This document shows, piece after piece, positions 27,001 through 30,000 of a stretch of 64,000 bases of DNA. The first letter of the stretch is position 1, and each line of letters starts with the position of its first letter. The DNA comes from Escherichia coli. Lineage in GTDB: Bacteria; Pseudomonadota; Gammaproteobacteria; Enterobacterales; Enterobacteriaceae. The position numbers were made by a program. The stretch lies in the NCBI RefSeq assembly GCF_013122565.1, contig NZ_CP053258.1; one strand, given 5' to 3'.

Positions 27001-30000
27001 ATATTACGGCTTACGCACATAATGACACGATGCTGGTTAATAATGGGCAAAGCGTGAAGGCTGGGCAAAAAATCGCCACTATGGGGAGCACTGATGCGGC
27101 ATCTGTTCGCCTGCATTTCCAGATTCGTTACCGTGCAACGGCAATTGATCCGCTACGTTACTTGCCGCCTCAGGGCAGCAAGCCAAAATGCTGATGGCGA
27201 ATTAATCAGCAGTCAGCAGCGCGGCACTTGCTAAGGAGAGCGTAAGGTTTATAATGCCTTACGCATCTCGAAGCGGGCGTAGTTCAATGGTAGAACGAGA
27301 GCTTCCCAAGCTCTATACGAGGGTTCGATTCCCTTCGCCCGCTCCAATTTATCTTCACCTCATCAACCTGCCATTTTTGTTGTATCTGATTTTCTATATT
27401 ATCTTAATTCAATCGGTTCAGACTTTTCGCAATCGCCGTAATACTTCCCCATTTTTTTGTAAATAAAAAGCGATTACGCAATGCAATCCTTTTGTAACAA
27501 TCCAGGTAAAATACCTTATTTTCAAGTTGTTAAATAAGTGGTTATCTACGCTTTTAACAAACGATTGATGGAATATTTTATGAAAGGGAAATCTGCATTA
27601 ACTCTTCTGCTCGCTGGTATATTTTCATGCGGCACCTGCCAGGCGACAGGGGCAGAAGTGACGAGTGAATCTGTATTTAACATTCTTAATTCCACGGGGG
27701 CAGCAACAGATAAAAGTTATTTATCGTTAAATCCAGATAAGTATCCTAATTATCGTCTTCTGATTCACTCAGCCAAATTAAAAAATGAAATAAAGAGCCA
27801 CTATTCCAAAGACGAAATTCAAGGATTGTTAACATTAACAGAAAATACACGAAAGTTAACGTTGACGGAGAAACCCTGGGGAACATTTATTCTTGCTTCT
27901 ACTTTCGAAGATGACAAAACAGCGGCAGAAACCCACTATGATGCTGTCTGGCTGAGGGATAGTTTATGGGGCTATATGGCCTTAGTATCAGATCAGGGAA
28001 ATAGTGTAGCCGCAAAAAAGGTTCTGCTCACCCTGTGGGATTATATGTCTACGCCCGACCAGATTAAGCGGATGCAGGACGTCATTAGCAACCCAAAACG
28101 ACTGGATGGAATTCCTGGGCAAATGAATGCTGTGCATATCCGATTTGACAGCAACTCCCCCGTGATGGCGGATGTGCAGGAAGAAGGCAAGCCGCAGCTG
28201 TGGAACCATAAACAAAATGATGCGTTAGGTCTTTATCTTGATCTCCTTATACAAGCAATCGACACTGGTACTATTAACGCTGAAGATTGGCAAAAAGGTG
28301 ACCGATTAAAATCGGTTGCGCTGCTGATTGCTTATCTGGATAAAGCCAATTTCTATGTTATGGAAGATTCCGGAGCGTGGGAAGAAGATGCCAGATTAAA
28401 CACATCTTCCGTTGCACTGGTGACCTCTGGACTGGAACGTTTGTCGAACTTACTCTCGAAGAAAGACTCTGTTTTTGTCTCTGATTTACTACGTGAAGCT
28501 AAAGCCAATGAACTGGATGAACCTCTTTCAACAACGAGGTTGAACCACCTCATAGATAAAGGTTATGAAAGAATAACGTTACAGCTTGATTTAGGGGGAG
28601 AATCCCCAGGTTATCTGGAAAAAGATAAACATTACAGAGAAGCCGATGCGGCTTTACTTAATGTTATTTATCCTGCAAATCTTTCAAAGATAAACACCAG
28701 AAGAAAAGAGCAAGTTCTAAAAATAGTTAAAAAACTAGCAGGTCCGTATGGTATAAAAAGATACGAGAAGGATAATTATCAGTCGGCAAATTTTTGGTTC
28801 AATGATATTAAAACCGATACCGATCAAAATTCGCATGCAAAAAGAGAAAAGAGCTTCATTCCATCAACAGAAGCAGAATGGTTTTTTGACTCATGGTATG
28901 CAAAATCAGCAGCAATTGTTTATAAAGAATCAAGAAAAGAAGAGTATTTGAATGACTCAGTGCAATTTATGAATAGATCATTGGCCCAAATAACAGGCGA
29001 GAATATGATTGGTGCAAATGGCAGGAGTGTACCTGAAATGGCACTTCCCGAAAGCTATAACTATATCCACAAGTCGGGAACTTTGCATGAAGCGCCAAGC
29101 CCTATCATTCCGCTAAATTGGTCGAAAGCATCAATGACTCTCATGTTGAAAGAGATGTCCAACCTTATCAATGATGAGGGAAATAAATAGTTTTCATAAT
29201 GAGGCGGTCCTGGATTAAAAGGACCGCTCAAAGAGAAATCGAAAGGGGAGGTAAAAGTGATCAATAAATTACTGTTAGCTTACCTGATAGGTCTGGTTGT
29301 GACATCGACTTTAATATTTATCTTCTCGGAAGAAAAAGTAACATATCGGTTGTTTGCTGCAATAATTACAGGTTTAACCTGGCCGCTTAGTCTCATTCCT
29401 TCCATTATAAGTCTCATGATTCGTAAATCCGACTAACAAGAAAATTATATGATCGATTAAGAAAAATAGAATCGAACAGGAGAATAAAATATATGCGGGG
29501 AGTAACAAAACACTCGCAGTGCGTTAATGAAGAACTAACAAATATGATTTGTATTGAAAATAGTTACCAAACAAGTGTTATAAGAAATACGAGGTGTGTT
29601 TAAGTAAAGCATATCAACAGTTACAAATCTGTATATGGACAGGATGACGTACAAGTGTAAGTGGCTGATAGCTATTCGCTCATAACAAAATCATTATTTT
29701 ATAAATAGGAATCATCACTTTTTAATCATGTTTTTATAGCAATTTTATGGAGAATGAGAATATGGAATAAGGAGATGAAACATGATTGAAGAAGGGCTGT
29801 TACTTCCAATGAATGTTTTGCTTCAAGGACAGAAGTTAACCCTACTGGACCCTGAAATGTGGTTCTTACGGGGAAATGAAAACAAGGATGTAACCCTTGT
29901 TATTACGATCGGTAATAACCATCAAAAATTAATGGTAGTGGAAGATATATTACTGCTCATTGACCGAAGCCAAATTGAGGTAACGGCAGGGAAAGTAATT

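What the first reader, a model, noticed from the sequence alone, without database searches (positions are those of the whole stretch)
29257..29436. Unannotated 59-codon hydrophobic ORF with a near-consensus ribosome-binding site
It falls below the ORF-track length cut-off but has a GGGGAGG Shine-Dalgarno 7 nt before a GTG start and encodes two predicted TM helices. It sits in the long AT-rich leader upstream of eivF.
Basis: seen in the sequence. Interest (0 to 1): 0.35.

Follow-up and report, generated by a model that had tools for sequence, protein, structure and literature searches.

The report
Known GhoT/OrtT-family small toxin gene ECs3735
The 59-codon ORF is a real, conserved gene, but it is already annotated: it is ECs3735 of the E. 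coli ETT2 island, a small two-helix membrane protein of the GhoT/OrtT toxin family. Its conserved neighbour is the glycoside-hydrolase gene upstream, not eivF downstream.

Summary
A GTG-initiated 59-codon ORF lies at 29257-29436 (+). GGGGAGG lies at 29245-29251, with a 5-nt spacer rather than 7, and the product has two hydrophobic helices.

It is not unannotated. It is identical to ECs3735 (NP_311762.1) of O157:H7 Sakai. An ETT2 review lists ECs3735 as a ydcX homologue and inner membrane protein, and RefSeq calls it "GhoT/OrtT family toxin" (WP_001301699.1). It matches Pfam PF10753 at 45.1 bits against a cutoff of 22.1. It is 39% identical to GhoT and 25% to OrtT.

ORF length alone is not beyond chance: 26% of shuffles give an ORF of at least 59 aa. 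Comparison settles it. dN/dS is 0.05-0.19, and the frame is exactly kept in E. albertii while both flanking spacers are barely alignable.

No GhoS homologue lies in the window, so it is most likely an orphan membrane-damaging toxin like OrtT. Toxicity is untested.

In E. coli, E. albertii, Yersinia enterocolitica and one unidentified contig it always lies within 1 kb of a signal-peptide GH15 gene, with or without a type III secretion system nearby. I found no description of this linkage.

Verdict: already known and uncharacterised; low interest.

The parts
29257..29436 (+). 59-codon gene (GTG start, TAA stop) for a GhoT/OrtT-family small inner-membrane protein; it is ECs3735 / WP_001301699.1
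   Evidence: The ORF is seen. It matches Pfam PF10753 at E=1.2e-11, 45.1 bits against a cutoff of 22.1. RefSeq annotates it and it is identical to Sakai ECs3735. dN/dS is 0.05-0.19. The family-invariant residues R31, T41, W42, P43 and S45 are present.
29245..29251 (+). Shine-Dalgarno sequence GGGGAGG, 5 nt before the GTG
   Evidence: Seen. Some E. coli lineages have GGGAGG through a 1-nt deletion. Purine-rich SD motifs (AAGGA or GAGGA) precede the start in E. albertii and Yersinia.
29204..29229 (+). G+C-rich stem-loop directly after the GH15 stop codon and 16 nt before the SD. It has no U tract, so it is not a canonical terminator. It is probably a 3' hairpin of the GH15 transcript and/or a 5'-UTR structure of the toxin mRNA.
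   Evidence: RNA folding gives z=-3.76 and z=-3.04, with 0 of 200 shuffles folding as well. A stable hairpin of different sequence sits at the same place in E. albertii (z=-5.6) and in the Yersinia locus L014 (z=-3.45). The Yersinia locus L013 also folds into a 9-bp stem there, but that whole region is not more stable than shuffles (z=-0.42, 61 of 200 shuffles fold as well). The left edge of the common 8.7-kb ETT2 deletion lies at 29203/29204.
27580..29190 (+). GH15-family glycoside hydrolase gene (536 aa from ATG 27580; 'pkgA'/ygeQ-like) with an N-terminal signal peptide. It is the conserved neighbour of the small gene.
   Evidence: It matches Pfam PF00723 at E=8.5e-6 and RefSeq calls it 'glycoside hydrolase family 15 protein'. 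Orthologues 58-77% identical lie within 1 kb of the GhoT-like gene in E. albertii, Y. enterocolitica and the unidentified contig L021.

Best explanation
The ORF is the already annotated ETT2-island gene ECs3735. It is a third, divergent E. coli paralogue of the small membrane toxins GhoT and OrtT.

Shown: it has the signals for translation from GTG 29257 behind a strong Shine-Dalgarno site. It encodes a 59-aa helical hairpin with two transmembrane helices, a short polar loop and the family's G-x-T-W-P-L-S kink. It is under purifying selection, and no ghoS gene lies next to it.

Inferred by homology to GhoT and OrtT: when made, the protein inserts into the inner membrane, dissipates proton-motive force and ATP, and slows or stops growth.

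Inferred from context: it behaves as an orphan toxin like OrtT. It is held in check by low expression, not by a cognate antitoxin. Candidate restraints are H-NS silencing of the AT-rich island, the hairpin just upstream, and three MqsR-type GCU sites in the coding region that ghoT lacks.

It is inherited as a two-gene cassette with the upstream secreted GH15 glycosidase. It is not a dedicated part of the eivF leader.
For: Family: PF10753 at 45.1 bits against a cutoff of 22.1. It is 39% identical to K-12 GhoT over 46 aa (E=2e-12) and 25% to OrtT. All family-invariant residues are present. The hydropathy profile parallels those of GhoT and OrtT, and the AlphaFold2 model is a helical hairpin at pLDDT 80.

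Real gene: dN/dS is 0.05 within E. coli, 0.14 against E. albertii and 0.19 between two Yersinia alleles. Eight of 12 polymorphic sites are at codon position 3. The ORF stays at exactly 180 nt while the flanking spacers are 53-58% identical with many indels. An SD is present in all four lineages.

Orphan status: tblastn with GhoS finds nothing better than E=0.03 in the 64-kb window or in L012-L014. The upstream gene is GH15, not ghoS. Rfam has no RNA-family match in 28800-30000.

Not addictive: about 1700 complete E. coli genomes have lost it through the 29204-37933 deletion.

Precedent: OrtT is toxic, has no antitoxin and is not neutralised by GhoS (PMC4344625).

MqsR sites: 3 GCU in this ORF, 0 in ghoT and 2 in ortT.

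H-NS modulation of ETT2 is stated in PMC11068852.
Against: Toxicity, membrane location and expression are not shown for this protein. No ribosome-profiling, transcription-start or proteomic record was found.

Phe38, whose F38R change abolishes GhoT toxicity and reduces OrtT toxicity, is Ile36 here.

The Escherichia proteins end in a charged tail (IRKSD or HKSEQ) instead of the hydrophobic LLFSLF of GhoT and OrtT, so activity could differ.

The tight, order-independent linkage to GH15 in several lineages is not explained by a free-standing toxin model.

An antitoxin with no homology to GhoS, or a small RNA, cannot be excluded by sequence alone.
Confidence: 0.6

Rival explanations
1. The small protein is a functional partner of the GH15 glycosidase, not a toxin as such. 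It could be a holin-like or membrane-permeabilising helper that assists release or localisation of the secreted GH15 enzyme, or a membrane subunit or regulator of it.
For: The GhoT-like gene and the GH15 gene lie within 1 kb of each other in E. coli, E. albertii, two divergent Y. enterocolitica alleles and contig L021. In L021 the order is reversed: toxin, then an IS-like fragment, then GH15. The downstream genes differ between loci (T3SS, DUF6710, LysR, IS elements). In a neighbour-joining tree the GH15-linked proteins form one clade apart from GhoT, OrtT and the Serratia orphans. GH15 carries a signal peptide. In E. coli only 16 nt separate the hairpin from the SD, which leaves no room for a separate promoter and so suggests transcription coming from the GH15 side.
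Against: The two genes come apart in E. coli. In Sakai GH15 is split into ECs3736 and ECs3737 while ECs3735 is intact. About 1700 genomes keep a gene that RefSeq mostly annotates as GH15 but have deleted the small gene. GH15 enzymes act on alpha-glucans or trehalose, not on peptidoglycan, so this is not a holin-endolysin pair. PHROGs gives no holin match. A stable hairpin separates the two genes in three of the four lineages folded. Only five lineages were sampled and most lie in IS-rich islands, so co-transfer could explain the linkage. The tree has no support values.
Confidence: 0.12
2. It is a type V toxin controlled in trans by the chromosomal GhoS endoribonuclease, which would cleave its mRNA as it does ghoT mRNA.
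For: Of the two K-12 paralogues it is closer to GhoT (39% against 25% identity). GhoS cleaves A/U-rich sites with a loosely defined specificity (PMC3997798), and this mRNA is A/U-rich (36% G+C).
Against: No ghoS gene lies adjacent or anywhere in the window. GhoS fails to neutralise OrtT, which is much closer to GhoT at 63% identity. Unlike ghoT, this ORF has three MqsR GCU sites, so the MqsR-GhoS-GhoT cascade logic would not apply. Yersinia and Serratia family members also lack a ghoS neighbour.
Confidence: 0.08
3. It is a type I-like module: a small hydrophobic toxin repressed by a cis-encoded antisense or overlapping small RNA.
For: Size, hydrophobicity and a structured 5' region resemble type I toxins. 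Weak promoter-like and terminator-like sites exist on the minus strand, at 29725-29696 and 29381-29369.
Against: Promoter-like hits are at the level expected by chance: 4 found against 4.6 expected. Rfam gives no match. The flanking spacers are not conserved between E. coli and E. albertii, so no conserved small RNA is visible outside the ORF. The family's characterised members are type V or orphan.
Confidence: 0.07
4. It is a chance ORF, or a decaying remnant with no function, in an island that is itself degenerating.
For: An ORF of this length arises by chance in 26% of shuffles of the spacer. ETT2 is widely eroded, and more than half of the genomes that carry ETT2 remnants have deleted this gene. 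Occasional frameshifted variants exist, such as P0066, P0069 and P0134.
Against: There is a significant Pfam match, dN/dS is 0.05-0.19, and length and frame are exactly conserved against a background of unalignable spacers. Orthologues exist in three species. The gene stays intact even where neighbouring eivF-eivA (L008, L010, L011) or GH15 (Sakai) are broken.
Confidence: 0.03

Closest known systems
OrtT (YdcX), the orphan toxin of E. coli K-12 (PF10753)
   Same: Same Pfam family, with a ~57-59 aa two-helix hydrophobic hairpin and the conserved R...G-x-T-W-P-x-S motif. No adjacent antitoxin gene. GCU (MqsR) sites are present in the mRNA. The ETT2 review already lists ECs3735 as a ydcX homologue.
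   Different: Only 25% identical. It has Ile instead of Phe38 and a charged C-terminal tail (IRKSD) instead of LLFSLF. It sits in a horizontally acquired island beside a GH15 gene, not in the core genome between patD and ydcY. Toxicity is untested.
GhoT of the GhoT/GhoS type V toxin-antitoxin system
   Same: It is the closer K-12 paralogue by sequence (39% over 46 aa, E=2e-12), with the same size, topology and motif.
   Different: There is no ghoS upstream and no GhoS homologue in 64 kb. The mRNA has 3 GCU sites against 0 in ghoT. It uses a GTG start and has a hairpin plus a GH15 gene upstream instead of a ghoS-ghoT bicistron.
GH15-linked GhoT-like genes of E. albertii and Yersinia enterocolitica (annotated only as 'GhoT/OrtT family toxin')
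   Same: These are true orthologues or close relatives at 61% and 44-45% identity. They occupy the same position next to a 536-541 aa GH15 gene. A hairpin follows the GH15 stop in E. albertii and in the Yersinia loci L013 and L014, and an SD is present.
   Different: The Yersinia copies are 57 aa, end in LLFSxL like GhoT, and have no type III secretion genes alongside. Contig L021 has the reversed gene order next to an invH homologue.

Membership tests
GhoT/OrtT toxin family (Pfam PF10753) | Match to the family HMM above the curated gathering score | tested here: met
   E=1.2e-11, 45.1 bits against a cutoff of 22.1, covering residues 4-46 of 59. RefSeq names it 'GhoT/OrtT family toxin'.
GhoT/OrtT toxin family (Pfam PF10753) | A protein of about 57-59 aa with two transmembrane helices joined by a short polar loop | tested here: met
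   The hydropathy profile parallels those of GhoT and OrtT. The AlphaFold2 model has helices 2-23 and 28-58 with a kink at 41-45, at pLDDT 80.
GhoT/OrtT toxin family (Pfam PF10753) | Conserved residues of the family: Arg in the loop, and G-x-T-W-P-x-S in helix 2 | tested here: met
   R31, T41, W42, P43 and S45 are invariant, and Y9 and G39 nearly so, across 17 family members that include GhoT and OrtT.
GhoT/OrtT toxin family (Pfam PF10753) | Phe38, the residue whose F38R substitution abolishes GhoT toxicity and reduces OrtT toxicity | tested here: not met
   The aligned residue is Ile36. Other family members have L, I or V there, so Phe is specific to GhoT and OrtT and does not define the family.
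GhoT/OrtT toxin family (Pfam PF10753) | Growth inhibition, membrane damage and ATP loss on expression | not testable with these tools
   No experimental report on ECs3735 was found.
Type V toxin-antitoxin system (GhoT/GhoS) | A ghoS endoribonuclease gene immediately upstream in one operon | tested here: not met
   The upstream gene is GH15. tblastn with K-12 GhoS against the window and L012-L014 gives nothing better than E=0.03.
Type V toxin-antitoxin system (GhoT/GhoS) | Toxin mRNA cleaved by GhoS | not testable with these tools
   The GhoS specificity is only described as 'A/U-rich'. The primary paper is not held.
Type V toxin-antitoxin system (GhoT/GhoS) | Toxin coding region free of MqsR GCU sites, which underlies MqsR-driven toxin enrichment | tested here: not met
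   There are 3 GCU in this ORF against 0 in ghoT (the rationale is in PMC4344625).
Orphan toxin (OrtT-like) | No antitoxin gene adjacent | tested here: met
   The neighbours are GH15 and eivF, there is no GhoS-like ORF, and Rfam finds no RNA family. This holds only as far as homology can detect.
Orphan toxin (OrtT-like) | No antitoxin elsewhere in the genome | not testable with these tools
   This needs a genetic screen like the one done for OrtT.
Type I toxin-antitoxin system | A cis-encoded antisense or overlapping small RNA antitoxin | tested here: inconclusive
   Consensus promoter hits are at chance level, Rfam finds nothing, and the flanks are not conserved across species. No transcriptome data were available.
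Holin paired with a lytic enzyme | Adjacent peptidoglycan hydrolase, phage or holin family match | tested here: not met
   The neighbour is GH15. Its only match among solved structures is a weak one to the phosphorylase kinase beta subunit, E=0.002. PHROGs hits are weak and none is a holin. There is no match in the phage collection.

The most novel reading that the evidence does not exclude
The ETT2, E. albertii, Yersinia and L021 proteins form a distinct GH15-linked subfamily of PF10753. Its role would be tied to the adjacent secreted GH15 glycosidase, for example controlled membrane permeabilisation that releases or positions the enzyme. It would then not be a stand-alone stress toxin, and a 'toxin' family would have a second, non-TA function. 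The evidence does not exclude this. Linkage holds in five lineages, in both gene orders and in different surroundings.
Probability: 0.12. Interest if true: 0.55.

Novelty: already known. Interest (0 to 1): 0.2.

Why it matters
As posed, the finding matters little. The gene has been in the Sakai annotation as ECs3735, and RefSeq names it a GhoT/OrtT family toxin.

Two points are still of modest value. First, pathogenic and commensal E. coli with an intact right end of ETT2 carry a third, uncharacterised GhoT-like membrane protein with no GhoS partner. No ETT2 paper that could be read here discusses it as a toxin. Second, its evolutionarily stable partner is a secreted GH15 glycosidase, not the type III secretion genes.

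This second point suggests a testable question. Are some 'orphan toxins' of this family really accessory membrane proteins of other gene products? It also bears on deletion mutants in this region, such as eivF-region knock-outs and the natural 8.7-kb deletion, because these also remove or retain a putative membrane toxin.

Tried and rejected
- Species-representative genome scan with peptide patterns. It returned one locus, a 'Collinsella' MAG contig that is 95% identical to E. coli DNA and is presumably contamination. The exact 8-mer patterns missed E. albertii and Yersinia. The exhaustive HMMER search and the profile search then found them.
- Rfam on 28800-30000 at E<=1: no match.
- PADLOC defence models for the toxin and GH15: no match.
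- PHROGs: only weak hits (E>=0.009) to unnamed families, none a holin.
- tblastn against phages: no match. Against plasmids: one match, which is a mislabelled 4.9-Mb chromosome.
- Search for GhoS anywhere in the window or in the orthologous loci: nothing significant.
- Promoter and terminator consensus scan: at the level expected by chance. I therefore make no promoter claim. The TTGAAA-18-AATGAT site at 29146-29175 is noted only as a possibility.
- Expression evidence: the supplementary files of three EHEC Ribo-seq or TSS papers hold no entry for ECs3735 or Z4199.
- The primary GhoS paper (PMC3514572) and the ETT2 regulator paper (PMC529121) are not held. GhoS cleavage sites and the eivF operon structure could not be checked.
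- The 78-aa gene calls in public data were considered and rejected as the true product. They arise only in alleles where a 1-nt deletion in the SD (29245) puts ATG 29199 in frame. In this window a TGA at 29200 is in frame, so the shared start is the GTG.
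Full report
**What is in the sequence.** The window has an ORF at 29257..29436 on the + strand. 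It has a GTG start, a TAA stop and 59 codons, and encodes MINKLLLAYLIGLVVTSTLIFIFSEEKVTYRLFAAIITGLTWPLSLIPSIISLMIRKSD. An in-frame TGA at 29200 excludes any upstream start in this allele. Upstream is a GH15 glycoside-hydrolase gene at 27580-29190, and before that tRNA-Gly(CCC) at 27273-27346. Downstream are eivF (29782-30531) and the secretin gene eivG/sctC. This is the right-hand end of the E. coli ETT2 island.

**Is it more than chance?** Length alone is not: 520 of 2000 shuffles of the 591-nt GH15-eivF spacer contain an ORF of at least 59 aa. Several longer antisense ORFs in the same list are clearly spurious. The case rests on homology and conservation.

**It is already annotated.** A megablast of 29150-29800 against 5,426 complete E. 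coli genomes finds the region in 3,027. In every full-length hit listed, RefSeq annotates a "GhoT/OrtT family toxin" here, for example WP_001301699.1 in strain RMDEC465. In O157:H7 Sakai the identical protein is ECs3735 / NP_311762.1, "hypothetical protein". The ETT2 review by Zhou et al. (PMC3977695, Table 1) lists "ECs3735, 180 bp, ydcX, inner membrane protein". It lists the neighbour as ECs3736/pkgA, "phosphorylase kinase and glucoamylase". "Unannotated" is therefore wrong. More recent ETT2 papers that I could read do not mention GhoT at all.

**Family.** The protein matches Pfam PF10753 (Toxin_GhoT_OrtT) at E=1.2e-11, 45.1 bits against a gathering score of 22.1.
- I took the real K-12 sequences from NC_000913.3. 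The protein is 39% identical to GhoT over 46 residues (E=2e-12) and 25% to OrtT. GhoT and OrtT are 63% identical to each other.
- In a 17-member family alignment R31, T41, W42, P43 and S45 are invariant, and Y9 and G39 nearly so. The window protein has all of them.
- The hydropathy profile tracks those of GhoT and OrtT.
- An AlphaFold2 model built on that alignment (mean pLDDT 80) gives helices 2-23, 28-40 and 46-58 with the kink at TWPLS.
- Two differences stand out. Phe38, whose F38R change abolishes GhoT toxicity and reduces OrtT toxicity (PMC4344625), is Ile36 here. The Escherichia proteins also end in a charged tail (IRKSD or HKSEQ) instead of LLFSLF.

**Conservation.**
- Across nine E. 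coli alleles that differ by up to 5%, the ORF has 12 variable sites, 8 of them at codon position 3. The 345-nt downstream spacer has 30 variable sites.
- An exhaustive HMMER scan of 1.84 billion representative proteins found few relatives (13 at E<=0.001). The nearest was P0082 at 61% identity and 59 aa.
- The cluster of P0082 is E. albertii, seen on 541 contigs. Its locus L012 has the same synteny: GH15, small gene, eivF, secretin.
- Between E. coli and E. albertii, EivF is 88% and GH15 77% identical. The spacers on both sides of the small ORF are only 53-58% identical with many indels. The ORF keeps exactly 180 nt.
- Nei-Gojobori dN/dS is 0.05 within E. coli, 0.14 between E. coli and E. albertii, and 0.19 between two Yersinia alleles.
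- An SD is present in all lineages.
- The 78-aa versions in public gene calls come from alleles where a 1-nt deletion in the SD brings ATG 29199 into frame. The extension is not shared between alleles, so the GTG is the common start.

**The conserved neighbour is GH15, not eivF.**
- The next relatives (P0083, P0084, P0116; 44-45% identity, 57 aa) are from Yersinia enterocolitica. Each lies directly downstream of a 540-541 aa GH15 orthologue (59% identical). No type III secretion genes follow. Instead there are DUF6710/DUF2913 genes, a LysR regulator, or a field of IS elements with AbiEii and RES genes.
- A further contig, L021, has the reversed order: an invH homologue (Pfam E=1e-18), the GhoT-like gene, an IS-like fragment, then GH15, with IS66 pieces around them.
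- Family members in Serratia have neither GH15 nor GhoS beside them. An Enterobacter copy sits next to hipBA.
- In a neighbour-joining tree the GH15-linked proteins cluster apart from GhoT, OrtT and the Serratia group. The sequences are short and the tree has no support values.
- Only the last ~85 nt before the eivF ATG are conserved between E. coli and E. albertii. The small gene is therefore not an evolutionary part of the eivF leader.

**Regulatory anatomy.**
- A G+C-rich stem-loop at 29204-29229 follows the GH15 stop codon (z=-3.8; 0 of 200 shuffles fold as well). It has no U tract.
- Hairpins of unrelated sequence occupy the same position in E. albertii (z=-5.6) and in the Yersinia locus L014 (z=-3.45). 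L013 folds into a similar stem, but its region as a whole is not more stable than shuffles (z=-0.42).
- In E. coli only 16 nt separate the hairpin from the SD. The toxin transcript must therefore start at or upstream of the hairpin. It comes either by read-through from GH15 or from a promoter inside the 3' end of GH15. This is inference only, because promoter-like hits are at chance level.
- Rfam finds nothing in the region.

**Antitoxin.**
- tblastn with K-12 GhoS finds nothing significant in the 64-kb window or in the orthologous loci (best E=0.03).
- The ORF has three GCU (MqsR) sites, against none in ghoT and two in ortT.
- GhoS does not neutralise OrtT. GhoS specificity is described only as A/U-rich, and the primary paper is not held.

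**Population behaviour.**
- About 1,700 of the 3,027 matching genomes retain only the first 54 bases of the query. In those sampled, RefSeq mostly annotates an intact GH15 gene there.
- They carry a deletion of window 29204-37933 that fuses the GH15 3' flank to an eivJ remnant. There is a short AATGA microhomology at the junction. This deletion removes the small gene.
- A second deletion type (29895-34882) removes eivF-eivA but keeps the small gene intact.
- In Sakai GH15 is split into ECs3736 and ECs3737 while ECs3735 is intact.
- Loss of the gene is therefore tolerated, which argues against addiction. In E. coli the two genes are not strictly interdependent.

**Most likely mechanism.**
- Shown: this is a translated-looking, selected gene for a two-helix membrane hairpin of the GhoT/OrtT family, with no GhoS partner.
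- Inferred from the family: when expressed it inserts into the inner membrane and lowers proton-motive force and ATP, slowing growth.
- Inferred from context: it acts as an orphan toxin like OrtT. It is kept quiet by H-NS silencing of the AT-rich island (ETT2 modulation by H-NS is stated in PMC11068852; the ORF is 36% G+C) and by its structured upstream region.
- I put about 0.95 on "real GhoT/OrtT-family gene" and about 0.6 on the orphan-toxin mechanism as a whole.

**Rivals.**
- A functional partnership with GH15 (0.12). It is supported by order-independent linkage in five lineages. It is weakened by the decoupling in E. coli and by GH15 not being a peptidoglycan hydrolase.
- Control by GhoS in trans (0.08).
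- A type I-like antisense RNA (0.07).
- A meaningless ORF (0.03), which the conservation data contradict.

**Searches that led nowhere.**
- The species-representative genome scan returned only a contaminated MAG contig.
- PADLOC, PHROGs, phage and plasmid searches were negative.
- Supplementary tables of three EHEC Ribo-seq or TSS papers hold no entry for the gene.

**Verdict.** But the gene is already known and named, so the finding is ordinary. The only mildly new element is the conserved GH15 linkage, which defines a distinct and experimentally untouched subfamily.

Noticed in passing
window 29204-37933 (left edge at the hairpin); locus L002 3049-3054: The common ETT2 deletion removes 8.73 kb, from the first base of the post-GH15 hairpin to inside eivJ. 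There is a short AATGA microhomology at the junction. About 1,700 of 5,426 complete E. coli genomes carry it, and it deletes the GhoT-like gene together with eivF-eivJ.
   Followed up: partly
window 29895-34882; loci L008, L010, L011: A second, independent deletion of ~5 kb fuses the 5' end of eivF to the 3' end of eivA. It leaves the GhoT-like gene and GH15 intact. It was seen in 3 of the 8 full-length E. coli loci fetched for annotation.
   Followed up: partly
window 29697-29781, especially 29747-29770: This is the only part of the toxin-eivF spacer conserved with E. albertii. The last ~50 nt are identical. It contains a 7-codon mini-ORF (ATG GAG AAT GAG AAT ATG GAA TAA = MENENME) that ends just before the GGAG Shine-Dalgarno of eivF. 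It could be a leader peptide or the eivF promoter and 5' UTR.
   Followed up: no
window 27538 versus 27580: The mechanical ORF for GH15 starts at GTG 27538 (550 aa). RefSeq and all orthologues start at ATG 27580 (536 aa, MKGKSALTLLLAGIFSCGTCQA...), which gives a typical signal peptide. In Sakai the gene is split into ECs3736 and ECs3737.
   Followed up: partly
L001 1-2337; L015 3200-5592; L021 1928-2506 and 5857-6081: IS66-family elements lie next to the GH15/GhoT-like pair in an E. coli strain, in Y. enterocolitica and in contig L021. In L015 the pair sits among IS256, IS240 and IS110 transposases and AbiEii and RES genes. The pair appears to travel in IS-rich islands.
   Followed up: no
L021 2537-2845 (minus strand): An InvH (SPI-1 pilotin) homologue (Pfam E=1e-18) lies beside a GhoT-like gene and GH15, with no other type III secretion genes on the 6-kb contig. 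This hints that the pair is historically tied to the inv end of SPI-1-type islands.
   Followed up: no
L005 (JAIJJM010000090.1, 'Collinsella sp.' MAG): A contig assigned to an actinobacterial MAG is 95% identical to this E. coli ETT2 region, so it is almost certainly binning contamination.
   Followed up: no
window 29199-29256, with 29245: Many public gene calls give a 78-aa product (MKRSWIKRTAQREIVREVKV...). This comes from alleles with a 1-nt deletion in GGGGAGG that brings ATG 29199 into frame. The extension is encoded by the hairpin region and is not conserved, so it is probably an annotation artefact.
   Followed up: yes
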